A model generated the notes under the pieces. The model saw nothing but the letters and a program-made list of their open reading frames with translations. It did no database searches and was not told where the DNA came from. Shown one piece after another: positions 807-12,119 of a stretch of 64,000 nucleotides of DNA. The first letter of the stretch is position 1; every line of letters begins with the position of its first letter. Both the position numbers and the translations under genes were made by a program. The DNA is from an uncultured Chloroflexia bacterium (GTDB taxonomy: Bacteria > Chloroflexota > Limnocylindria > Limnocylindrales > CSP1-4): NCBI GenBank assembly GCA_963779315.1, contig CAVZXQ010000004.1, positions 128,847 to 192,846 on the forward strand. The letters run 5' to 3'.

Positions 807-2716
<1,910 letters not shown>

Positions 2717-2779: not shown

Positions 2780-4828
2780 GTGAGCGAAGAAGATTCGGCC
2801 CTAGAGCACGAGCACCCAGGCGGCTGGACGGACCGCGAGCTCGCCACGCTGGCCGACCTCGCCGAGACGTTCGTCCGCGGTGACGCCGTCCGGCGAGCCA
2901 GGCTCGCCGCGGAGGCGTTCCTTCGCGCCGCGGATCGCGACCAGGTCGCCCAGATCCGGATGGTCCTGGGGCTCATCGAGCGCCCTCTCGTCAACCTGGC
3001 CCTGGGCGGTGGCGCGCGCGCGTTCCGGGACATGTCGCCCGCGGCACGTGAGCGATACCTGCTCGGCTGGGCGGCATCCCGGCTGGGTCTGCGCCGCTCG
3101 GCGTTCGGGGCATTCCGCAAGCTCCTGACGTTCCTCGCCTACGCGGATCCGGGGGTGGACGGCCCGAACCCACTGCTCGTGCGCCTCGGGTATCGGACCG
3201 ACGAGCGGCCGATCGCGACGGAACCCACCGGCATCGTCCCGACCCGCCTTCCGTTCGAGACAGGCCCTGCCGAGGACCCGATCGTCCTGGAGGCGGACGT
3301 CGTGGTCGTCGGGTCAGGGGCGGGCGGCGGGATCGCTGCCGCCGGACTGGCGGCCGCCGGCAAGTCCGTGGTCGTGCTGGAGGCTGGTCCGTTCGTCGAA
3401 GAGCGCACGATGCCCGGCAATGAGCTGGACGCGTTCGCGCAGCTCTATCTCAACTACGGCCTCCTGGCCACGTGGGACGGGGCCGTCACGATGCTGTCCG
3501 GGAGCGGGGTCGGCGGTGGGACGCTGGTCAACTGGATGACGAGCATCCAAGCGCCCGAGGACGTCCGGGATGAGTGGGCCGCCGATCATGGCCTGGCGCA
3601 GGTCTGTGGCACCACCTGGGATGCAGACGTCGCCGCGGTCAATTCCGAGCTCGGCGTCACGACGACGACGGTCATCCCGCCGAAGGACGCGGCGATCCTG
3701 CGCGGGGCGGGGGAGCTGGGCTGGGAGGCCGCCCCGACCCGGCGAAACGCGGAATGCGGCGCGTGCGGCAGTTGTCCGTTCGGGTGCACGCGCGGCGCGA
3801 AACAGTCGGGGATCCGGGTCCATCTCGCGCAGGCCCACGCCGCTGGAGCTCGGATCGTCCCGCGGGTGCGGGTCATCACGGTGCTGCTGGATGGAGGTCG
3901 GGCGGTCGGCGTGGCTGGGACCGCGGTCGTCACCGACGCAGTCACCGGCGAGCCGATCGGTCATCCGGATCGCGCGGGCGAGGTGATGACCCGGCCGGTG
4001 GTCGTGCGCGCGCCGGTCGTCGTTCTGAGCGCCGGAGCGCTGCGCACGCCGGGGATCCTGCAGGCGACCGGTCTGGAGCATCCGTCCATCGGCCGACACC
4101 TGCGGCTGCACCCTGTGCCCGTCCTCGCCGGTCGATTCCGCGAGCCGATCGATATGTGGCGCGGCCCGATGCAGGCCGCCCGGTCGCTCCAGTTCGGGAA
4201 GGGAGAGCCTGGTCGAAACGGCTACGTGATCGAGGCCGCGCCGGGGCATCCGGGTCTCCTTGCCCTCGCCCTGCCCTGGGAGGGGACCGAGGCCCATGCC
4301 GCCGTGATGGCCACCGTTCGCTACCTCTCGCCGTTCATCGCGGTGACACGGGACGGCGGGGAGGGGCGGGCGTCACTCACCAGGTCCGGCCGCGTCCGGC
4401 TCGACTACGACCTGGACGCGACAGGCGTGGCGACCCTTCGCCATGCACTCGTGTCGATGGCGCGCCTGGCCCGTGCCGCCGGAGCGACGGAGCTGGTGGC
4501 CGCCGGCACACCACCCGCCTGGTTCGGACTGGACGCGACGACGTTCGCGCGGTTCGAGGAACGCCTCGCCGCCTTCGACTTCAGCCCCAACCGGGGAACC
4601 GTGTTCTCGGCCCACCAGATGGGCTCGGTCCGGATGGGCGCCCACCCGAAGACCCATCCGTGCGATCCGGGCGGGCGCGTTCGCTCGGATGGACGCGGTG
4701 ACAAGGTCATCGGCGGCCTCTATGTCGCCGACGGCTCGCTGTTCCCGACCGGGATCGGGGTGAACCCGATGATCACGATCATGACGCTCGCCCGACAGGT
4801 GACACGGACGATCCTGGCTGAGGCGTGA
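2780..4828 (+). CDS. GMC-family FAD oxidoreductase (long-chain alcohol oxidase-like, with about 150-aa N-terminal extension)
   Basis: 682 aa with a GTG start. FAD fold VVVVGSGAGGGIAAAGLAAAGKSVVVLEAGPF; C-terminal GMC block ...FSAHQMGSVRMG...GLYVADGSLFPTGIGVNPMITIM. Confidence 0.8.
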   Translation: MSEEDSALEHEHPGGWTDRELATLADLAETFVRGDAVRRARLAAEAFLRAADRDQVAQIRMVLGLIERPLVNLALGGGARAFRDMSPAARERYLLGWAASRLGLRRSAFGAFRKLLTFLAYADPGVDGPNPLLVRLGYRTDERPIATEPTGIVPTRLPFETGPAEDPIVLEADVVVVGSGAGGGIAAAGLAAAGKSVVVLEAGPFVEERTMPGNELDAFAQLYLNYGLLATWDGAVTMLSGSGVGGGTLVNWMTSIQAPEDVRDEWAADHGLAQVCGTTWDADVAAVNSELGVTTTTVIPPKDAAILRGAGELGWEAAPTRRNAECGACGSCPFGCTRGAKQSGIRVHLAQAHAAGARIVPRVRVITVLLDGGRAVGVAGTAVVTDAVTGEPIGHPDRAGEVMTRPVVVRAPVVVLSAGALRTPGILQATGLEHPSIGRHLRLHPVPVLAGRFREPIDMWRGPMQAARSLQFGKGEPGRNGYVIEAAPGHPGLLALALPWEGTEAHAAVMATVRYLSPFIAVTRDGGEGRASLTRSGRVRLDYDLDATGVATLRHALVSMARLARAAGATELVAAGTPPAWFGLDATTFARFEERLAAFDFSPNRGTVFSAHQMGSVRMGAHPKTHPCDPGGRVRSDGRGDKVIGGLYVADGSLFPTGIGVNPMITIMTLARQVTRTILAEA

Positions 4829-5792
4829 TCGTGGCGATCGTCGAGTCCGGTCGCTGCAGTCTTCCACGGGACGTGACGATGAGCGCGACCGCGACCACGA
4901 TGACGGCCCCAGCGATGAGCGTCCGGGCATCGATGGGCTCCTGGAGGATCAGCGCGCCGAGGATCACCGCGACGATCGGGTTCACGTACGCGTAGGTCGA
5001 GATCAAGGTCAGTGGCGCGACGCCGAGCAGCCAGCTGTACGTGGAGTAGGCGACGAGGCTCCCGATCACCGTCAGGTAGACGAACGCGATCAACGAGTCC
5101 GTCGAGACAGCCGCGGGCTCGAACGTCTGCCACTCACCGCTGATCGCACCCATGGCGGCGAGCACCGCGCCGCCTGTCAGCATCTGGGCGCCGGTCGACA
5201 CGAGCGGCCGGCCGGGCAACCGGGCCCGGTGCGAGGCAAAGAGCGATCCGATGGCCCACGCCAGCGGCGAGATGAAGAGGGCGACCAGCCCGGCCGGGTC
5301 CATGGCACCCACGCCGCCGTACGCGGACGGTCCGACGAGGATGACGATGCCGGCGAAGCCCACCACGATCCCGGCGACGGCGAGGCGTGGCAGCCGCTCT
5401 CCCAGGAAGAGCCCGCCCAGGACCGCGACCCACAACGGCATCGTCCCGATGAGCAGCGCCGCGATGCCCGACGGGATGGTCTGCTCGCCCCAGGCGACCA
5501 TCCCCATCCCGCCACCGAGCAGCAGGGCTCCGACGATCGCCGAGTCACGCCACTCCCGTCGGGTCGGCCAGGCGAACGAGCGCCCTTCCCTCAGGATCGA
5601 CCAGCCGAACAGGACGCCGCCGGCGACCAGGAACCGGATGGCGGCCATCACGAACGGGGGAAACGTCTCCACCGCCACGGCGATCGCGAGGTAGGTTGAG
5701 CCCCAGACGGCATACAGGATGAACATCCCCACCCAGATCGACGATCGCGCCGGCCGAGGACTCAGGTCCATTGGCATAGTGTGTTGGTCCAA
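4779..5792 (-). CDS. EamA/DMT family transporter
   Basis: 337 aa, about 10 predicted TM helices, duplicated EamA-type halves (WGSTYLAIAVAV...; ...YSTYSWLLGVAP). Confidence 0.8.
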   Translation of the reverse strand: MDQHTMPMDLSPRPARSSIWVGMFILYAVWGSTYLAIAVAVETFPPFVMAAIRFLVAGGVLFGWSILREGRSFAWPTRREWRDSAIVGALLLGGGMGMVAWGEQTIPSGIAALLIGTMPLWVAVLGGLFLGERLPRLAVAGIVVGFAGIVILVGPSAYGGVGAMDPAGLVALFISPLAWAIGSLFASHRARLPGRPLVSTGAQMLTGGAVLAAMGAISGEWQTFEPAAVSTDSLIAFVYLTVIGSLVAYSTYSWLLGVAPLTLISTYAYVNPIVAVILGALILQEPIDARTLIAGAVIVVAVALIVTSRGRLQRPDSTIATITPQPGSSVSPVGRAS

Positions 5793-5836: not shown

Positions 5837-6641
5837 TCAGGCGGCCGCGAGCCCGGCCCCGGACCCGGGTCGGCAGGCCAGGCAGGCGCGGTACCCGCCG
5901 GCGGCCGCGGCGGCCATGGATCGGAACGGCACGCGATGCGGCTCGGTGATCCGCCTGGCGTTATGGCAGGTCGGCAGGCAGACGATATGGGTCGTATCGG
6001 ATCCCGACGAACCGGATGCCCGCATGGGCCATGGCCTCCAGCCCGGACGGATCGAGCCCTTCGGAAGCCAGGATCGCCCGCTTGTTGGCGGGTCCGCCGA
6101 GCGAGTACTGGCCGATCGTCCCGTCGGTCCGCACCACGCGATGGCACGGGACGATGAGCGGGACCGGGTTGTGGCCGAGGGCTGTGCCCACGGCCCGGAC
6201 GGCCTTCGGTCGGCCGATCTCCGCCGCGATCCAGCCGTACGGCCGGACCTCGCCGCGCGGGATCTCCAGGGCCTTGGCCCAGACGTCGCGTTCGAAGTCG
6301 GAATGGCCCCGCAGGTCGAGTTCGATGCGGACCCGTCTTTCACCCGCCAGCCGGCGACCGATCGCCGACGCCAGGCCGCTCGGCAGCCCGGCCGCTCGGT
6401 AGGCTGTTCGGCCGGTCCGCGTGGCATGGACGGCCTTGAACGAGGCATCGTCGGCGGCCGCCTCGACGGCTGAGACGCCCGTTCCATTCCACGCCACCAT
6501 CAGTGGTCCGATGGGCGAGTCCATCGGGGCGAACCAGTCGGCCAGGCCGACTTCCACCAGGACGCCCGGGGCGAGAGACGGCGGAGCGCCCGTCGCCAAC
6601 CCGGCCAGCGCGGTCTCAAGGTCGAGTTCGTTCGTCGTCAT
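5837..6641 (-). CDS. ogt: methylated-DNA-protein-cysteine methyltransferase (MGMT/Ogt) fused to a C-terminal Ada-type Cys4 zinc domain; frame broken near 6003-6005
   Basis: ORF 5961..6641 carries the MGMT core (IPRGEVRPYGWIAAEIGRPKAVRAVGTALGHNPVPLIVPCHRVV). After ...AHAGIRFVG, the neighbouring frame (tail of ORF 5837..6487) reads SDTTHIVCLPTCHNARRITEPHRVPFRSMAAAAAGGYRACLACRP. This matches the E. coli Ada N-domain pattern TTGIFCRPSC...AAGFRPCKRCQP. The gene start overlaps the sigma gene stop (ATGA). Confidence 0.7.
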
Positions 6642-7234
6642 GCGCTGATCTCCTCGTCGTGCAGTCGGTTCGTGGCGTCGTAGGCGGCCCGCAGCGCCTC
6701 GAGGCCGCGGTGGACCTGGGCCTTGACCGTGCCTTCGGGTCGGCCGAGGGCGATGGCCAGCTCGGGGTACGACAGGCCGTCCACGTGACGCAGGACGACG
6801 GCCTCCCGCTGGGTGGGTGGCAGGCTCAGCAGCAACGCCGCCCAGTCACGGAGTGCGGTGCGCCGCTCGGCGATGGCCGCCGGACCGGCGTCGCTCGCCA
6901 TTCGTGGCTCGCTGTCAGCCGGGAGCGGACCGTCGAGGGACATCGCCGGCCGGGCCGGCGTCGTGCGCGATCGCCGCGAGCGGCACAGGTTCAGGACGAT
7001 CGTCGACAGCCACGGCCGGAGCCGAAGGTCGCGGATCCGGGTTGTGTCGTACCCCTCGAGCGCGCGATACGCCCGCACGAAGGCGTCCTGGGCCGCTTCC
7101 TCGGCGTCGGCCGGATCGCCGAGCACCCGCAGGGCGATCGAGTACAGCCGGTCCTGGTGCGCGAGGACGAGCGCCTCGAACGTGCCGTCGAGGTCCGTGG
7201 TCAATCCCGCGATGATCGCGTCGTCGGTCTCCAT
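6638..7234 (-). CDS. ECF-type RNA polymerase sigma-70 family factor
   Basis: Sigma-2 region (LVLAHQDRLYSIALRVLGDPADAEEAAQDAFVRAY) and sigma-4 region (REAVVLRHVDGLSYPELAIALGRPEGTVKAQVHRG). I prefer the internal ATG at 7234 (METDD...) over the track start at 7405, which would overlap the divergent GNAT gene. Confidence 0.85.
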   Translation of the reverse strand: METDDAIIAGLTTDLDGTFEALVLAHQDRLYSIALRVLGDPADAEEAAQDAFVRAYRALEGYDTTRIRDLRLRPWLSTIVLNLCRSRRSRTTPARPAMSLDGPLPADSEPRMASDAGPAAIAERRTALRDWAALLLSLPPTQREAVVLRHVDGLSYPELAIALGRPEGTVKAQVHRGLEALRAAYDATNRLHDEEISA

Positions 7235-7403
7235 CGAACTCCAGAACCCGCACCCCGGCCGAACCGTTGCATTTCGGGTGGCCGGTGCCGAGACCTGCGT
7301 AACGGTACCCGCGATCGCCCGGCGAGCCATCGTCGTTTCCGGCCGGTATCGTTGGGCGATGCGCGGGACCGGACCTACCCTCCATGGCGTTGACGCACCG
7401 ACC

Positions 7404-8210
7404 ATGCGTCGGTTGTTGATCCACGAGGCACGCGTTCATGCGCTTCCCGGTCGCGAGCTCCGCGATCTCGGGGATGCGATCCTGCTCCACGATCCGATCG
7501 ACCCGGAGCCGTTCTGGAACCGGGCCGAGGGCATTCGCTGGCCGTCCGATCCCGACGAGTTCGATCGCCGTCTCGCCGAACTCCTGATCGTGTTCACATC
7601 GATCATGCGCCAGCCGCACGTCTGGGAGTCGCCGGCCCACGATGCCCCGCCTGACCTCGTGGAGCGGCTTGAGGCCAACGGGTTTCGCGATGTCGGCGGT
7701 GGCTGCGTGATGGTCCTCGTCGATCCGGCCAGGGCGATCGAGCACGCAGGGTCGCCGCTCCCCCCAGGCATACGCGTGGAGCGATCACATGGCCTGACCG
7801 GCCAGCCGGCGCTTCGTGCGGCGGCCGACATCGTGTCGGTCCTGCTCGACGCCTTCTCGGTCGAGCCGGATCGGCGGGCCGCGATCGAATCGGAGACTGC
7901 GGTGTCGCTTGGCCACGCCGCGTTCACCTACTACCTGGCGACGCTCGACGGGAATCCCGCGGCGGTGGCCCGATGCGCCACCTTCGCCGGGGCCAGCTAC
8001 CTGTCGTCGATCGGGACCGCCACGTGGGCCCGAGGCCGAGGTCTCGGACGGGCCGTGACGGCCGCAGCGAGCGCAGATGCCCTGGCCGCCGGCAGCGAAT
8101 GGACGTACCTCGGTGTCTTCACCGACAACGACGTGGCTCGCCGGGTCTATCGCGATGTCGGATTCGCCCAGGTCGGCGACCCGTGCGCCGACCTCCTGTT
8201 CATCGGGTGA
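7404..8210 (+). CDS. GNAT family N-acetyltransferase (two-domain)
   Basis: ATG at 7404 inside track ORF 6813..8210. C-terminal acetyl-CoA motif ...ATWARGRGLGRAVTAAA...VFTDNDVARRVYRDVGF. Confidence 0.75.
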   Translation: MRRLLIHEARVHALPGRELRDLGDAILLHDPIDPEPFWNRAEGIRWPSDPDEFDRRLAELLIVFTSIMRQPHVWESPAHDAPPDLVERLEANGFRDVGGGCVMVLVDPARAIEHAGSPLPPGIRVERSHGLTGQPALRAAADIVSVLLDAFSVEPDRRAAIESETAVSLGHAAFTYYLATLDGNPAAVARCATFAGASYLSSIGTATWARGRGLGRAVTAAASADALAAGSEWTYLGVFTDNDVARRVYRDVGFAQVGDPCADLLFIG

Positions 8211-8285
8211 GCGTCGATCGCGTTCCCTGCTGGCGCCTCGCTACGGGAAGCGCTCGAGCGCATCGTCGGTAGCGATCCGTCGTTC

Positions 8286-8687
8286 ATGCCCGTCGCGCTC
8301 GGCTGGGCGACGATCGACCTCGACCGCGCGGAGTCCGGTTTCGCCGACGCCTTCGAAGGCTCGTTCGAGGCATCGGGAGACGTGGCGGACGACATGCTGC
8401 TCGGCGCCCGCTGTCGCCTGGTGCGCACGGGTGACCCGGTCGTCCCCGTCGTCGTGTTGCTGGAGCCGTTCACGGAGGGGCGCCTCGCCGCAACGCTCGC
8501 CCGGCATGGGGAGGGTCCGGCCGCCGTCTGGGTCCGGGCCGAAGAGTCTCGCCGGTCGGCCCAGCAGGGTCACCGGTCCGTGGAGACACCGGGGCCGTTC
8601 GGATCGGAAGTGCTCCTGGCCGGCGGTCCTCCTTCGGGACCGTATCGCCTCCTCCTGATCGCCGTGCCGGGTACCATCACGCCATGA
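8286..8687 (+). CDS. hypothetical protein (glyoxalase/VOC-like?)
   Basis: 133-aa ORF with G/C-rich third positions. No in-frame ATG/GTG/TTG lies upstream before the stop at 8208. ATGA overlap with the next GNAT gene. The family call is weak. Confidence 0.5.
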   Translation: MPVALGWATIDLDRAESGFADAFEGSFEASGDVADDMLLGARCRLVRTGDPVVPVVVLLEPFTEGRLAATLARHGEGPAAVWVRAEESRRSAQQGHRSVETPGPFGSEVLLAGGPPSGPYRLLLIAVPGTITP

Positions 8688-9124
8688 CCGATACCGCCGC
8701 GATGACCCTTCGACCAGCCACGATCGATGACGCCGACGCCATCGCTGCCCTGTTCACCGATGAGGGCTACCCGGCCGGGCCGTCCGATATCGCCGCCCGT
8801 CTGGCGCGATTCGGCCCTCCCGAGGGCGCTGTGATCGTCGCCGAACACGATGGCGCGTTGCTCGGCTTCATCGCCCTCCATTCGCTGCCACGCTTCGAGC
8901 ACGGCGACGTCATCCTGCGCATCCTCGCCATCGTCGTGGACGCCGGGGCGCGTGAGCGCGGCGTCGGACGCGCCCTCATCGCCGAAGCGGAGCGGTTCGC
9001 GGCCGAACTCGGGGCGGCCTTCGTGGAGCTGACCGCCGGCCATCACCGGCCCGATGCCAGGCACCTGTACGAGTCGCTCGGCTACGACGCGACGGTGGCT
9101 GCCTACCTCCGCAAGAAGCTCTGA
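8684..9124 (+). CDS. GNAT family N-acetyltransferase
   Basis: 146 aa; motif A reads ILAIVVDAGARERGVGRALIAEAERFAAELG. Confidence 0.85.
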   Translation: MTDTAAMTLRPATIDDADAIAALFTDEGYPAGPSDIAARLARFGPPEGAVIVAEHDGALLGFIALHSLPRFEHGDVILRILAIVVDAGARERGVGRALIAEAERFAAELGAAFVELTAGHHRPDARHLYESLGYDATVAAYLRKKL

Positions 9125-9159
9125 CGCAGCCAGCGCCGGCCGCCTCCTCGTTCCCGCGG

Positions 9160-10401
9160 TTGCGCCTGCGCGACGGCGCGGGCGCCCTCCTGGATCTCCC
9201 ATGGGACCGCGCTCTGGCCGATTGGTCCGCGGACGACCTGCGGTTCCGGGAGTTGCCGGTCGGGCCGTCGCGTCATCTCGTCCGGTTCCTCGTCGCGAAC
9301 GGTCGTACGTATGCCCTCAAGGAGGAACCCCTGGCGGTCGCGACATCCGAGTTCGACGTGCTGCGTCGTCTCGAGGAGGCCGGCCTCCCGGCCGTGACGG
9401 CCATCGGCCTGGCGCAGGCCCCGGAGCGGGACTCGGCCATCCTGATGACGGAGTACCTGACGTATTCCATCCAGTACCGACGCCTGCTGATGCGGTTCCC
9501 GCTCGGCCCGGGCCCGTACCGCGAACGGCTCCTGGACGCGATGGCCTGGTTGCTCGTGGATCTCCATCGTTCCGGGGTCTACTGGGGCGATTGCTCGCTC
9601 GCGAACACCCTGTTCCGGCGCGACGGCGACCGGATCCAGGCATTCCTGGTCGACGCGGAGACGAGCGAGATCCACCCCTCGCTCTCGGATGGCCAGCGCG
9701 GGTACGACCTCGACATCCTCGTGGAGAACGTGGCGTTCGGCCTGGCCGACCTTGGGGCGATGCAAGGTCGCGAGGACGCCTTCGACGATGCGGTCCAGGC
9801 GGCCGAGACCGTCCGCTCCACGTACCTTGGTGTCTGGGCGGAACTGACCGAAGAGCCGCTGGTCGAGCCGGGTGACCGCCACGCCGTCCGGGCGCGGATC
9901 CGACGTCTGAACGACCTGGGCTTCGCGGTGGACGAGATCTCGCTGGTGCCCAGCCGCTCGCGGGCAGGGTCTGTGCGACTGCGCGTCGCGGTGGCCAATC
10001 GACGCTTCCAGGCGCGCGAACTCGAGCGACAGACCGGGCTCGTGGCGCTTGAGGGTCAGGCCAGGCTGCTGCTCAACGACCTGCATGAGTACAAGGCGTG
10101 GATCGAAGCCCAGGACGCGAAGCGACTCACCGACCGCGAGGCGGCGGAGCGCTGGCTTCACGATGTGCTCGAGCCCAGTCTGGCCCACCTCGTCCCGGCG
10201 ATCGGCCCGGGACGCGACGCCCTCCAGGCCTATTGCGACGTGCTCGAGGAGAAGTGGATCCTATCCGAGGCTCGCGGGTCGGACGTCGGCCTTGAACGGG
10301 CGATGCAGGAGTACCTGGGACTGGGTGCGCCGGCTCCGGAGGATGATGTCGGGGTGCGCGAAGGCTCGACGGCCCTCGACATCGACCCGCCCAGGGGATG
10401 A
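9160..10401 (+). CDS. DUF4032-type protein with N-terminal Kdo/RIO-like kinase fold
   Basis: 413 aa with a TTG start. Contains ...YALKEEPLAVATSEFDVLRRLEEAGLPAV...LHRSGVYWGDCSLANTLFRRDGDRIQAFLVDAETSE... followed by a long helical C-terminal part. Confidence 0.7.
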   Translation: MRLRDGAGALLDLPWDRALADWSADDLRFRELPVGPSRHLVRFLVANGRTYALKEEPLAVATSEFDVLRRLEEAGLPAVTAIGLAQAPERDSAILMTEYLTYSIQYRRLLMRFPLGPGPYRERLLDAMAWLLVDLHRSGVYWGDCSLANTLFRRDGDRIQAFLVDAETSEIHPSLSDGQRGYDLDILVENVAFGLADLGAMQGREDAFDDAVQAAETVRSTYLGVWAELTEEPLVEPGDRHAVRARIRRLNDLGFAVDEISLVPSRSRAGSVRLRVAVANRRFQARELERQTGLVALEGQARLLLNDLHEYKAWIEAQDAKRLTDREAAERWLHDVLEPSLAHLVPAIGPGRDALQAYCDVLEEKWILSEARGSDVGLERAMQEYLGLGAPAPEDDVGVREGSTALDIDPPRG

Positions 10402-10410
10402 CCCGACCGG

Positions 10411-10938
10411 CTACCAGCGCTCCTCGTGGATCATCTCGGCCAGCGGACGCCGTCCGCCGGTCGCATTCGGGCGAGTCAGGTCGGTCGGATCCGCGGGGTA
10501 GCCGAACGACAGCAGGTAGTCGCAGACGTGGTCCGCCGGATAGCCGAGCAGACGTCGCGCGAGGTCGTGGTCGTAGACGGTGGCCGGCACGCTCCCGATC
10601 CCGAGCTCCCATGCCGCAAGCATCATGTTCTGGGCGGCAAGGCCGAGGTCGAACTGGATCGACTCATGGGTCCCCGACCCGTCCGGTCCGGGGGTCACCA
10701 GGGCGATCCCGACGGCGGCTCCGGCGAGGTGTCCCGCCCAGTCGCCGACGGCGCCGAGCTCGCGAAGATGCCCGCGATCCCGGCACACGATGAAGTCCCA
10801 GCGCTGCCGGTTCTTGGAGCTGCCGGACCGTCGGCCCGCACGCAGGATCAGATCGAGGTGCCCGGGGTCCAACGAACGGTCTGCGAAGGATCTGACCGCG
10901 CGCCTCGTGTCGATGGCGGCCCAGACCGGTCCGGTCAC
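10411..10938 (-). CDS. nitroreductase family protein
   Basis: 175 aa; contains AIDTRRAVRSFADRSLD...SGSSKNRQRWDFIV...AAQNMMLAAWELGIGS. Confidence 0.8.
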   Translation of the reverse strand: MTGPVWAAIDTRRAVRSFADRSLDPGHLDLILRAGRRSGSSKNRQRWDFIVCRDRGHLRELGAVGDWAGHLAGAAVGIALVTPGPDGSGTHESIQFDLGLAAQNMMLAAWELGIGSVPATVYDHDLARRLLGYPADHVCDYLLSFGYPADPTDLTRPNATGGRRPLAEMIHEERW

Positions 10939-12119
10939 GACCCGCCCCCTCCAGCGGCAACGGAGACGGCAGTCGCTTCATCCCGGATCGTCGGGTCCGT
11001 GGCGTTCGGCATGGCGACCTGGGCGAGGGTCCGCAGGCCACTGGCGTTCCCGGCCACCGCCGCGAACGGAGCTTCGCCATCGGGGATCCGTTCCGCCGGC
11101 GTGTCCGCCGCGATTCGTCCAGCCTCGTCGGCAGCCAGTGGTCCACCGAGGGCTGTCGCGAGAAACGTGGCGACGGTCCGTCGATAGCCGGCGTCCTCGT
11201 ACAGCCAGGAATGGTGCCCGCCCGCGACGACGAGGGTCTCGACCGGCGCCGGTGCGCGCTCCCCGGCTCGCGCCGCTCTTGCCGCCTTCGACAGGCGCAG
11301 CATGTGGGATGCGGGCACGACCGCGTCATCGGCACCGTGCGCCAGGAGGATCGGCCCGTCGTACCGGGCGATGCCGTCGGTCGCGTTGATGTCGCTCACG
11401 ACATGTCCCCTCGGCCGGAGGTAGATCCGGGTGGTCAGCCAGGCGAGCGGGTAGGCGATCGGGTCCGGGAACGGCAGGCGGGCCAGCCGGAATGTCTGGC
11501 GGGTGAGCCGATAGGGGTCGGCTGGGGCGGAGGTGGATACGACGGCAGCCACGCGATCGTCGGCGGCGCCGGCGAGGATCGCCCCGATCGCGCCCATCGA
11601 GTGGCCCGAGATCGCCCCGACAGTGACCTCCGGTCGAGCCAGCAGCGCCACGAACCCGGCGAGGGCATCGGACCCGAACTCGCCGGCGCTGATCGGCAGC
11701 TCCTCGGCAGGGTTGGCGCCGTGCCCCCGCACATCGAGGGTCAGGCAGTGGAACCCGGCCGCGTGCAGGAAGACGGCCATCGGCAGCGTCCGGTCCCTGC
11801 CAGATTCCCAGCCATGGACGAGGACGACGCCGGGGCCGGGCGCACCGTCGCGGGCGGGGATGAACCAGGCCGGCAGGTCGATGTCGCCGGATGAGACGAC
11901 GGTGGTCTCGAAGGGCAGGCCGAGCTCCGTCGGGGTGACGCTCGGCGGTCGCCGGCGTGGGTACCCTGCTCGGGCCCGGTAGACGAGGGCGAATCGATAG
12001 GCGAGCCCGAACGGTGCCACCGCAAGGGCCGCCAGGCCGGCACGTCTGATGCTTCCCACGTGACAAGGGGACGCCACGCGACCCGAACCTGTCAAGCGTG
12101 CCGTGGCCGGGGCCTGCAC
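10935..12119 (-). CDS. alpha/beta hydrolase (prolyl oligopeptidase/dienelactone hydrolase-like)
   Basis: GVVLVHGWESGRD and the nucleophile elbow ISGHSMGAIG. The start is uncertain: the track start is 12119, but a GTG at 12059 would leave a more plausible divergent promoter gap. Confidence 0.8.
   Translation of the reverse strand: MQAPATARLTGSGRVASPCHVGSIRRAGLAALAVAPFGLAYRFALVYRARAGYPRRRPPSVTPTELGLPFETTVVSSGDIDLPAWFIPARDGAPGPGVVLVHGWESGRDRTLPMAVFLHAAGFHCLTLDVRGHGANPAEELPISAGEFGSDALAGFVALLARPEVTVGAISGHSMGAIGAILAGAADDRVAAVVSTSAPADPYRLTRQTFRLARLPFPDPIAYPLAWLTTRIYLRPRGHVVSDINATDGIARYDGPILLAHGADDAVVPASHMLRLSKAARAARAGERAPAPVETLVVAGGHHSWLYEDAGYRRTVATFLATALGGPLAADEAGRIAADTPAERIPDGEAPFAAVAGNASGLRTLAQVAMPNATDPTIRDEATAVSVAAGGGGS

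What the first reader, a model, noticed from the sequence alone, without database searches (positions are those of the whole stretch)
5837..7234. ECF sigma factor translationally coupled to an MGMT-Ada(Zn) fusion: candidate alkylation-sensing sigma/anti-sigma pair
The ECF sigma gene (6638..7234) ends in an ATGA overlap with a gene that is not a zf-HC2/RskA-type anti-sigma factor.
- The partner is an O6-alkylguanine-DNA alkyltransferase with an intact PCHRVV site and a roughly 40-aa N-terminal extension.
- Once a 1-nt frame break at 6003-6005 is bridged, it also carries a C-terminal Ada-type Cys4 zinc domain: FVGSDTTHIVCLPTCHNARRITEPHRVPFRSMAAAAAGGYRACLACRP. Compare E. coli Ada: FVFAVRTTGIFCRPSCRARHALRENVSFYANASEALAAGFRPCKRCQP.
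- In E. coli, the Zn-Cys domain is the methylphosphotriester sensor that converts Ada into a transcription activator.
- Here the two suicide methyl-acceptor domains are in reversed order, lack the AraC HTH, and occupy the position normally held by an anti-sigma factor.

Inference: alkylation damage could be passed to transcription through a dedicated ECF sigma factor. I do not know of a characterised example of this architecture.
Basis: partly seen in the sequence, partly recalled or inferred. Interest (0 to 1): 0.7.

Follow-up and report, generated by a model that had tools for sequence, protein, structure and literature searches.

The report
ECF sigma paired with alkyltransferase anti-sigma
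An alternative sigma factor gene is coupled to a DNA-alkylation repair protein that sits where an anti-sigma factor normally sits, a pairing conserved across several bacterial phyla that probably lets consumption of a suicide repair enzyme switch on its own resynthesis.

Summary
Window 6638-7234(-) is an ECF sigma gene. Its TGA overlaps the ATG of a gene encoding a ~40-aa N-terminal extension, a complete O6-alkylguanine alkyltransferase (PCHR) and, after one extra base at 6003-6006, an Ada-type Zn(Cys)4 domain.

More than 100 intact 264-270-aa homologues exist. Substitutions after the break are mostly synonymous in the shifted frame, so the break is recent or an assembly error.

The pair is conserved in about 120 loci from Chloroflexota, Actinomycetota (including cultured Nonomuraea), Acidobacteriota, Dormibacterota and Eremiobacterota, mostly with a 4-nt overlap. 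Ordinary Ogt genes without the extension mostly lack the sigma.

Some relatives carry a full zf-HC2 anti-sigma domain fused to the same MGMT-Ada body. The window's extension aligns to the tail of that domain.

A promoter motif, TGCAAC-N15/16-G(G/T)GTTC, precedes the operon. In some actinobacterial loci it also precedes an ordinary Ogt and an AlkB-like oxygenase.

Best reading: an autoregulated sigma/anti-sigma pair whose anti-sigma is a suicide alkyl acceptor. Binding and induction are untested.

The sigma-MGMT association is already catalogued (ECF122, mechanism unknown). No characterised example was found.

The parts
7244..7271 (-). Candidate ECF-type autoregulated promoter: TGCAAC (-35-like), 16-nt spacer, GGGTTC (-10-like). 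It ends 9 nt before the sigma ATG, so the mRNA is probably leaderless or nearly so.
   Evidence: The motif GCAAC-N13-20-GTT[CT] was found upstream of sigma in 41 of 74 loci. The stricter form gave 51 hits in 940 kb of loci, all on the operon strand, 40 of them within 120 nt of the sigma start. In the window this is the only hit in a promoter position.
6638..7234 (-). ECF (group 4) sigma-70 factor, 198 aa.
   Evidence: Pfam r2 and r4_2; TIGR02937 above cut-off; 120 homologues, mostly 198-199 aa.
6638..6641 (-). ATGA stop/start overlap (translational coupling).
   Evidence: Sequence. The same 4-nt overlap occurs in 54 of 80 genome loci.
5837..6641 (-). Frame-corrected gene for the 267-aa N-extension/MGMT/Ada(Zn) protein, the proposed anti-sigma partner. 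As assembled it is split into a 226-aa ORF (5961-6641) plus an out-of-frame tail.
6522..6641 (-). N-terminal extension (aa 1-40), absent from ordinary Ogt. Conserved pattern L..AL..L...AP..L...VL..GL.D; two short predicted helices. Proposed sigma-binding segment.
   Evidence: Conserved across phyla. Aligns to the post-CxxC part of the zf-HC2 domain in relatives (hhalign P=4.4e-4). Helices at aa 5-14 and 23-30 in the AF2 model.
6057..6299 (-). MGMT catalytic/DNA-binding domain (PF01035, aa 115-195). Active-site Cys166 at 6144-6146.
   Evidence: The PCHR Cys is invariant in all alignments and Glu194 is invariant in A1, A3 and A6. The P0393 model matches 1sfe, 1yfh and 4bhb by Foldseek.
6003..6006 (-). 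Single extra base (GTC GGG A-TCC where GTC GGA TCC is expected) that breaks the frame.
   Evidence: Downstream substitutions are 9 synonymous against 2 nonsynonymous in the shifted frame.
5867..6020 (-). Ada-type Zn(Cys)4 domain (PF02805, aa 208-258 of the corrected product). Cysteines at 5978-5980, 5966-5968, 5882-5884 and 5873-5875.
   Evidence: The four Cys are invariant.
4779..5777 (-). EamA/DMT-family transporter gene, 59 nt downstream on the same strand. Possible third gene of the operon.
   Evidence: Immediately downstream in about 30 Limnocylindria-type loci and in L002. No terminator-like or sigma-70 promoter-like site between the genes.

Best explanation
This is an autoregulated ECF sigma / cytoplasmic anti-sigma module dedicated to DNA alkylation damage.

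Shown:
- The sigma gene and the MGMT-Ada(Zn) gene form a translationally coupled pair.
- The pair lies behind a conserved ECF-type promoter (TGCAAC-N15/16-G[G/T]GTTC).
- The pair is conserved across at least five phyla.

Inferred:
- The partner protein holds sigma inactive through its ~40-aa N-terminal extension. That extension looks like a cut-down remnant of a class I (zf-HC2) anti-sigma domain, comparable in size to minimal two-helix anti-sigma domains such as CnrY.
- The rest of the protein is two irreversible alkyl acceptors: the PCHR cysteine of MGMT (O6-alkylguanine) and the first cysteine of the Ada-type Zn(Cys)4 site (methylphosphotriesters).
- Alkyl transfer changes or destabilises the protein. 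Alkylated alkyltransferases are known to be destabilised and degraded, and methylated N-Ada is known to switch its DNA binding.
- Sigma is then released and transcribes its own operon. This replaces the consumed suicide enzyme one-for-one with sigma.
- In some lineages the operon also includes an EamA transporter, an ordinary Ogt or an AlkB-like oxygenase.

The logic is that of the E. coli Ada response (damage-modified repair protein leads to more repair protein), but implemented by partner release rather than by an AraC-type activator.

The Ada(Zn) domain is an accessory sensor or repair module. Natural Ada-less members are still sigma-coupled.
For: Domains and intact active sites.

Conserved coupling:
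- L002-L004.
- 80 genome loci, with sigma directly upstream in about 73 and overlaps of -4 nt (54 loci) or -11 nt (7 loci).
- Metagenome loci: 44 of 45 extension-bearing genes with enough upstream DNA have the sigma. Of 13 MGMT genes without the extension, 7 have no sigma and 6 belong to a separate sigma-coupled subfamily with another N-terminus.

Domain-fusion evidence: zf-HC2 above the gathering score in P0281, P0288, P0296 and P0314, fused to PF01035 and PF02805. Seven such loci also have a sigma upstream.

The N-extension aligns with the C-terminal part of the anti-sigma domain and is conserved even in Ada-less members.

Promoter. The same motif lies in front of an ordinary Ogt and of PF09859 Oxygenase-NA in L073 and L031.

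Sigma factors of extension-type partners from other phyla are 40-51% identical to the window sigma, against 31-38% for unrelated neighbouring ECFs.

AF2 model of a naturally or artefactually linked sigma-partner polypeptide: the N-extension helices reach pLDDT 85-93, against 73-79 when the partner is modelled alone. The sigma part best matches anti-sigma-bound conformations (4cxf TM 0.79, 5wuq 0.73-0.74), not RNAP-bound ones (rmsd about 26 A).
Against: - No direct evidence of sigma binding.
- The N-extension is only about 35-40 aa and has no Pfam anti-sigma hit. The hhalign probability is low (14%) despite P=4.4e-4.
- The sigmas next to zf-HC2-type partners are only 35-40% identical to the window sigma and lack the TGCAAC motif, so extrapolating from them is by analogy of the partner, not of the sigma.
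- No further promoter copy was found in the 64-kb window, so the regulon here is unknown beyond the operon.
- As assembled, this copy lacks the Ada domain because of the frame break.
Confidence: 0.55

Rival explanations
1. The MGMT-Ada gene is only a co-transcribed effector. The sigma factor is controlled in some other way (transcriptionally, or by an unlinked regulator) and drives a repair gene placed in its own operon. The two proteins never touch.
For: ECF122 and similar groups are listed in the literature as lacking a recognisable anti-sigma factor. The window protein has no Pfam anti-sigma domain. Repair genes (Ogt, Oxygenase-NA) are plainly targets of the same promoter in L073 and L031.
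Against: - This reading does not explain the conserved N-terminal extension, which distinguishes sigma-coupled MGMTs from ordinary Ogt.
- It does not explain the zf-HC2-MGMT-Ada fusions at the same position.
- It does not explain why L073 carries an ordinary Ogt in addition to the extension-bearing one in the same operon.
- The near-universal 4-nt stop/start overlap is typical of stoichiometric partners.
Confidence: 0.25
2. The partner is a positive co-factor. After methylation it binds DNA through its Ada(Zn)/MGMT domains and recruits or stabilises the ECF holoenzyme at target promoters, as methylated E. coli Ada contacts sigma-70 region 4.
For: The Ada-type Zn domain has all four cysteines and conserved basic residues. 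From my own knowledge, Ada-sigma-70 contacts are established in E. coli (not tested here).
Against: Relatives carry a zf-HC2 domain, a family known for inhibitory sigma binding. Ada-less members are still sigma-coupled. No conserved second DNA motif (Ada-box-like) was noticed next to the promoter.
Confidence: 0.1
3. In this particular genome the module is decaying. The frame break at 6003-6006 is real and the gene is a pseudogene, or now makes only an Ada-less protein.
For: The truncated 226-aa ORF is what the source assembly encodes. The extra base is present in the window.
Against: - After the break, 10 of 11 nucleotide differences to the nearest relatives fall on third positions of the shifted frame (9 synonymous against 2 nonsynonymous codons), and there is no stop codon. 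This indicates selection on that frame until very recently.
- The extra base sits at a short G run.
- Other long contigs in this family show indel artefacts (L002 has a split sigma; L085 has fused genes).
- Even if the break is real, the product would resemble natural Ada-less, sigma-coupled members.
Confidence: 0.2

Closest known systems
ECF group ECF122 (Casas-Pastor et al. 2021 classification, as summarised in PMC8999054)
   Same: An ECF sigma factor without a recognised anti-sigma factor whose conserved genomic neighbour is a 6-O-methylguanine DNA methyltransferase. The mechanism is listed as unknown and the neighbour is suggested as a possible regulator.
   Different: Membership of the window sigma in ECF122 could not be tested: there is no ECF Hub model, the example sequence WP_057211282.1 is not available, and the supplement is not held. 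The summary read here (PMC8999054) mentions only the MGMT neighbour. It does not mention the Ada(Zn) domain, the N-terminal extension, the zf-HC2 variants or the promoter. The example is from Cellulomonas (Actinomycetota), whereas the window is of Chloroflexota/Limnocylindrales type.
E. coli Ada (N-Ada Zn domain, AraC HTH, C-Ada MGMT) adaptive response
   Same: Both suicide acceptor domain types are present with intact cysteines. The inferred feedback logic is the same: a damage-modified repair protein raises its own synthesis.
   Different: The domain order is reversed and there is no AraC HTH. The score on the Ada equivalog model NF011964 is 97 bits against a cut-off of 345. Output is proposed to go through a dedicated ECF sigma rather than direct promoter activation.
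Zinc-binding (ZAS, zf-HC2) cytoplasmic anti-sigma factors such as RsrA/SigR, RslA/SigL and RsiW/SigW
   Same: The gene lies downstream of, and coupled to, an ECF sigma gene. The protein is cytoplasmic and Cys/Zn chemistry serves as the sensor. Relatives of the window protein carry a true zf-HC2 domain.
   Different: The window protein lacks the HxxxCxxC motif and keeps only the segment that follows it. The proposed signal is irreversible alkyl transfer from DNA, not reversible thiol oxidation.
Minimal (class II) anti-sigma domains: CnrY/CnrH and NepR
   Same: A short segment of two helices could suffice to hold sigma-2 and sigma-4 closed. The modelled sigma conformation is closest to CnrH in the CnrY complex (4cxf, TM 0.79).
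   Different: There is no sequence relationship. CnrY is a membrane protein, and NepR works by partner switching with PhyR. The interface here is not modelled.
Ordinary Ogt/MGMT (E. coli Ogt, M. tuberculosis OGT, human AGT)
   Same: Full catalytic domain with PCHR, conserved Glu and an HTH region.
   Different: The window protein has an extra N-terminal extension and a C-terminal Ada(Zn) domain. Ordinary Ogt genes in the metagenome sample have no sigma upstream.

Membership tests
ECF (group 4) sigma-70 factors | Only sigma-2 and sigma-4 domains, about 200 aa, above the family threshold | tested here: met
   PF04542 58.3 bits and PF08281 60.4 bits. TIGR02937 75.1 bits against a cut-off of 42.9. 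Length 198 aa.
ECF group ECF122 | Assignment by the ECF Hub group model or similarity to group members | not testable with these tools
   No group HMM or member sequence is available. The supplement of PMC7826278 is not held.
ECF group ECF122 | Conserved 6-O-methylguanine DNA methyltransferase gene in the neighbourhood and no canonical anti-sigma gene | tested here: met
   MGMT-type gene at +1 with a 4-nt overlap in the window and in about 120 related loci. The feature is described in PMC8999054.
O6-alkylguanine-DNA alkyltransferase (MGMT/Ogt) | PF01035/TIGR00589 above threshold with a PCHR active-site cysteine and conserved Glu | tested here: met
   PF01035 105.9 bits against 27. TIGR00589 95.6 bits against 46.4 for the 94%-identical P0001. 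PCHR in 120 of 120 homologues. Glu194 invariant.
O6-alkylguanine-DNA alkyltransferase (MGMT/Ogt) | Alkyl-transfer activity | not testable with these tools
   Needs a biochemical assay.
Ada N-terminal Zn(Cys)4 domain (PF02805) | Score above the gathering threshold and four Zn-ligand cysteines aligned with Ada C38/C42/C69/C72 | tested here: met
   33.3 bits against 23 on the frame-corrected product. Alignment to 1adn/1u8b residues 31-76 with all four Cys. Only profile positions 15-64 of 65 are covered.
Ada N-terminal Zn(Cys)4 domain (PF02805) | Encoded in frame with the rest of the gene in this window | tested here: not met
   One extra base at 6003-6006. Intact in all 120 homologues.
E. coli-type Ada regulator (NF011964 equivalog) | N-Ada, AraC-type HTH and C-Ada in that order, above the equivalog cut-off | tested here: not met
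   97.2 bits against 345. No HTH_AraC hit. Domain order reversed.
Class I zinc-binding anti-sigma factors (zf-HC2, PF13490) | N-terminal HxxxCxxC anti-sigma domain | tested here: not met
   No zf-HC2 hit and no motif in the window protein. The feature is met in relatives P0281, P0288, P0296 and P0314 (24.3-28.1 bits against 22.2).
Anti-sigma factors (functional class) | Direct, inhibitory binding to the cognate sigma factor | not testable with these tools
Only indirect indications are available.

The most novel reading that the evidence does not exclude
A damage-counting anti-sigma factor. The anti-sigma is itself a stoichiometric suicide repair enzyme carrying two alkyl-acceptor cysteines. 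Each repair event irreversibly inactivates one anti-sigma molecule and frees one sigma molecule, so transcription of the operon is proportional to the number of lesions repaired.

This would be a widespread adaptive response to alkylation in Chloroflexota, Actinomycetota, Acidobacteriota and Dormibacterota that does not depend on an Ada-type (AraC-family) activator. It appears to have been assembled repeatedly by fusing MGMT-Ada bodies to different sigma-binding N-termini.
Probability: 0.45. Interest if true: 0.8.

Novelty: new variant of a known kind. Interest (0 to 1): 0.62.

Why it matters
Outside Proteobacteria and Firmicutes, how cells sense alkylation damage and induce repair is poorly understood.

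If the MGMT-Ada protein really is the anti-sigma factor, the signal would be an irreversible alkyl transfer from DNA to the regulator itself. That would be a sigma/anti-sigma mechanism not yet characterised. It would also explain one of the ECF groups currently filed under 'mechanism unknown'.

The question is directly testable because cultured carriers exist: Nonomuraea spp. and Streptosporangium carneum. The promoter motif gives a ready reporter.

The module could also serve as an orthogonal, alkylation-responsive switch for synthetic biology.

Tried and rejected
I substituted a single-polypeptide form from public data (P0393). Its junction DNA shows it is most likely a 1-nt indel artefact. 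The tool returns no coordinates or PAE, so no interface could be read.
- Other apparent sigma-MGMT and MGMT-EamA fusion proteins (P0339, P0356, P0330, P0272, P0316) have partial domains. I judged them to be frameshift artefacts, not real fusions.
- The look-up of the window's own contig through P0121 found no record.
- ECF122 details could not be obtained. The NAR paper and its preprint do not mention ECF122 in the main text, no supplement is held, and Huang et al. 2015 is not held.
- Single-linkage clustering of stop-to-stop ORFs to find conserved neighbours was mostly noise in these high-GC loci. Only EamA and Oxygenase-NA survived targeted checks. One member of the Oxygenase cluster (an L052 ORF) had no Pfam hit.
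- Other promoter-motif copies in the window: the two extra loose matches are at chance level, and one lies inside an Lrp/AsnC-like ORF.
- NCBIfam gave no specific sigma subfamily. All equivalog models scored far below their cut-offs.
- I considered and rejected programmed frameshifting. All 120 homologues are in frame.
Full report
1. WHAT IS IN THE WINDOW

On the minus strand, 6638-7234 encodes a 198-aa ECF sigma factor.
- Sigma70_r2 scores 6.5e-16 and Sigma70_r4_2 scores 1.3e-16.
- TIGR02937 scores 75 bits against a cut-off of 42.9.
- The start at 7234 is supported by 109 of 120 close homologues being 198-199 aa long.

The sigma stop TGA overlaps the ATG of the next gene as ATGA at 6638-6641. 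That gene, as assembled, is a 226-aa ORF (5961-6641).
- It carries a PF01035 alkyltransferase domain (9.4e-31) and PCHRVV.
- Removing one base at the GTC/GGG run (6003-6006) gives a 267-aa protein that also carries an Ada_Zn_binding domain (33.3 bits against a cut-off of 23).
- The four cysteines align with C38/C42/C69/C72 of E. coli N-Ada (PDB 1adn, 1u8b and others).
- There is no AraC HTH.

2. THE FRAME CORRECTION IS RIGHT; THE BREAK IS RECENT OR ARTEFACTUAL

- A search of 5.8 billion proteins returned more than 100 intact 254-270-aa homologues (74-94% identity). All have both Pfam domains, PCHR and the Cys4 pattern. Those that carry a source name come from Chloroflexota / Ca. Limnocylindrales MAGs.
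- Against the closest DNA (L001, 91% identity over 919 nt) the window has exactly one inserted base.
- After the break, 10 of 11 nucleotide differences to the two nearest relatives lie on third positions of the shifted frame (9 synonymous against 2 nonsynonymous codons). This is the same pattern as upstream of the break (41 against 12-14). The Ada segment was therefore under purifying selection until very recently.
- The truncated ORF is what the source contig (257,916 bp, NCBI/ENA) encodes.
- Other long contigs of this family show indel artefacts: a split sigma in L002 and fused genes in L085.
- I cannot decide between an assembly error and a very young mutation. Either way the product would resemble natural Ada-less members (section 4).

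3. THE GENE PAIR IS CONSERVED FAR BEYOND CLOSE RELATIVES

- Three contexts of close homologues show sigma immediately upstream with the same 4-nt overlap.
- A scan of one genome per GTDB species with a diverse family alignment (A3) returned 80 loci. They come from Chloroflexota (Limnocylindrales, Ktedonobacteria and others), Actinomycetota (Acidimicrobiia, five cultured Nonomuraea species, Streptosporangium carneum, Pseudonocardiaceae, Mycobacteriales, Rubrobacteraceae), Acidobacteriota/Thermoanaerobaculia, Dormibacterota, Eremiobacterota and one Gammaproteobacteria MAG.
- With my own ORF and HMM analysis, an ECF sigma ORF lies directly upstream on the same strand in about 73 of the 80. The stop/start overlap is 4 nt in 54 loci and 11 nt in 7. 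Four of the 7 loci with no call are cut by a contig end.
- In a metagenome sample, 44 of 45 genes that carry the N-terminal extension and have enough upstream DNA have the sigma. The one exception is a classical AraC-Ada.
- Of the 13 MGMT genes without the extension in that sample, 7 have no sigma. The other 6 form a separate sigma-coupled subfamily with a different N-terminus.
- The sigma factors of extension-type partners in other phyla are 40-51% identical to the window sigma. Unrelated ECFs in the same loci are 31-38% identical.

4. ANATOMY OF THE PARTNER FAMILY

An exhaustive HMMER search of 1.84 billion cluster representatives found 223 clusters at E<1e-30. The family has four forms.
- (a) A short N-terminal extension (~40 aa), MGMT and Ada(Zn). 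This is the window type.
- (b) Proteins of ~300 aa in which a bona fide zf-HC2 anti-sigma domain (HxxxCxxC) precedes the same MGMT-Ada body. It scores 24.3-28.1 bits against a cut-off of 22.2 in P0281, P0288, P0296 and P0314. The seven genome loci of this type (L005-L011, mostly Acidobacteriota) also have a sigma upstream.
- (c) Proteins of ~190-215 aa with the extension and MGMT but no Ada domain. These are also sigma-coupled in L119 and L121.
- (d) A subfamily with another N-terminus (L141 type).

Across 35 diverse members, the PCHR cysteine, a glutamate about 27 residues after the PCHR cysteine, and all four Ada cysteines are invariant.

The window's extension carries a pattern conserved across phyla: L..AL..L...AP..L...VL..GL.D. 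In the multiple alignment and in a profile-profile comparison (P=4.4e-4, probability only 14%), it aligns with the part of the zf-HC2 domain that follows CxxC, that is, the end of helix 3 plus helix 4.

The window protein is therefore best seen as a zf-HC2-type anti-sigma factor that has lost most of the zinc-finger bundle.

5. PROMOTER AND REGULON

- A bipartite motif, TGCAAC-N15/16-G(G/T)GTTC(T), lies about 40 nt before the sigma start in 41 of 74 loci, including window 7244-7271(-). Shuffled sequences gave at most 12 of 74 for any motif.
- With a stricter pattern there are 51 hits in 940 kb of fetched loci. All are on the operon strand, and 40 are within 120 nt of the sigma start.
- The -10-like element ends 9 nt before the ATG, which suggests a leaderless or nearly leaderless mRNA. 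This is inferred.
- In L031 the motif precedes a PF09859 'Oxygenase-NA' gene (AlkB-like 2OG oxygenase, 256 bits) that is followed by sigma.
- In L073 the motif precedes an ordinary Ogt, then sigma, then the MGMT-Ada gene. A second copy precedes Oxygenase-NA. This ties the sigma's promoter to alkylation repair genes.
- In the window no second credible copy exists within 64 kb.
- An EamA-family transporter follows on the same strand in the window (4779-5777) and in about 30 Limnocylindria-type loci. No terminator-like site lies between the genes.

6. STRUCTURE MODELLING (WEAK SUPPORT ONLY)

- A true complex prediction was not possible.
- I modelled P0393, a 463-aa single polypeptide carrying all five domains that is probably an indel artefact, using a block alignment. 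Mean pLDDT was 80.9 and pTM 0.62.
- Its N-extension helices have pLDDT 85-93, against 73-79 when the partner is modelled alone.
- The sigma part superposes best on ECF sigmas in anti-sigma-bound, closed conformations: CnrH/CnrY 4cxf (TM 0.79, rmsd 4.5 A), SigW/RsiW 5wuq (0.73-0.74) and a NepR complex (0.73). It superposes poorly on RNAP-bound sigmas (rmsd about 26 A).
- No contacts could be inspected, and AF2 often closes free ECF sigmas. This is consistent with sigma binding but not evidence for it.

7. MECHANISM PROPOSED

Shown:
- A coupled, conserved, autoregulated-looking sigma/partner operon.
- Intact alkyl-acceptor sites.
- Anti-sigma-domain ancestry of the partner's N-terminus.
- Repair genes behind the same promoter in some lineages.

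Inferred:
- The partner sequesters sigma through the N-extension.
- Alkyl transfer to Cys166 and/or Cys221 irreversibly alters or destabilises the partner and releases sigma. From my own knowledge, alkylated human AGT and Sulfolobus OGT are destabilised and degraded, and methylation of N-Ada Cys38 acts as an electrostatic switch for DNA binding. Methylated structures 1eh7 and 4zyg appear among the fold matches.
- Sigma then re-expresses the operon and replaces the consumed suicide enzyme.

I put this at about 0.55. The main rival is a co-transcribed effector with no binding (about 0.25). It does not explain the extension, the zf-HC2 fusions, or the presence of a second, ordinary Ogt in the L073 operon.

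8. COMPARISON WITH WHAT IS KNOWN, AND NOVELTY

- A 2022 review (PMC8999054), citing the 2021 ECF reclassification, lists 6-O-methylguanine DNA methyltransferases as the conserved neighbours of group ECF122 under 'unknown mechanism' and as possible regulators. The association is therefore catalogued, although I could not test whether this sigma is ECF122.
- Six full-text searches found no characterised case and no description of the Ada(Zn) domain, the extension, the zf-HC2 variants or the promoter.
- The system works like a cytoplasmic ZAS anti-sigma pair with Ada-like feedback. It fails the membership tests for E. coli-type Ada and, in this copy, for zf-HC2.
- I rate it a new variant of a known kind, with interest 0.62.

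Noticed in passing
window 4779-5777 (-); L013-L066 and others: An EamA/DMT-family transporter gene follows the MGMT-Ada gene on the same strand in the window and in about 30 Limnocylindria-type loci, with no terminator-like site between them. It may be a third operon member. Its link to alkylation stress is unknown.
   Followed up: partly
L073:2437-5249; L031:2516-4699; L067:4576-5448: In actinobacterial MAGs the same promoter motif precedes an ordinary Ogt (L073) and PF09859 Oxygenase-NA, an AlkB-like 2OG oxygenase (L073, L031). L067 has the oxygenase downstream. This looks like a sigma-controlled alkylation repair operon.
   Followed up: partly
L005-L011 (Acidobacteriota/Thermoanaerobaculia and one Chloroflexia MAG): zf-HC2-MGMT-Ada(Zn) proteins of ~290-306 aa overlap an upstream ECF sigma gene by 11 nt. 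These loci lack the TGCAAC...GTTC motif, and their sigmas are only 35-40% identical to the window sigma.
   Followed up: partly
L141, L143, L144, L149, L150, L155, L157: A further subfamily has a different, unassigned N-terminal region (~75 aa), then a shortened MGMT N-part, the catalytic domain and Ada(Zn). It is preceded by a more distant ECF sigma in six of these loci (60-77 bits on the sigma HMM). No sigma was detected upstream in L143.
   Followed up: no
L025, L035, L054, L077 (Dormibacterota and Ca. Acidoferrum loci): A second ECF sigma gene lies directly upstream of the module, divergently oriented.
   Followed up: no
P0393/L085:4001-5392; P0392; P0339; P0356; P0272; P0330; P0316; L002:4192-6798: Public protein collections contain apparent sigma-MGMT-Ada and MGMT-EamA single polypeptides and split sigma genes. 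The junction DNA of L085 shows a 1-nt frame slip about 10 codons before the sigma stop (TAATG overlap in the other frame). These look like indel artefacts of long-read assemblies rather than real fusions.
   Followed up: partly
AF2 models mff287e09ba1e (P0001 residues 149-183) and mc6f984033225 (P0393 residues 357-380): The most conserved part of the MGMT domain (around PCHR) has pLDDT below 50 in both models although the sequence is nearly invariant. The cause is probably the shallow, low-diversity alignments, but this is unexplained.
   Followed up: no
window 807-2716 (-): A 470-aa ORF resembling beta-eliminating lyases (tryptophanase / tyrosine phenol-lyase type, judged by eye) overlaps the end of a 166-aa Lrp/AsnC-like regulator ORF by 4 nt (2216-2219). 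Neither was scanned against Pfam.
   Followed up: no
window 7400-12119; L002, L003: The neighbourhood is syntenic with related Limnocylindria contigs: GNAT acetyltransferases, DUF4032, the sigma-MGMT/Ada pair, EamA and a GMC oxidoreductase. This is consistent with a chromosomal, vertically inherited locus rather than a mobile element.
   Followed up: partly
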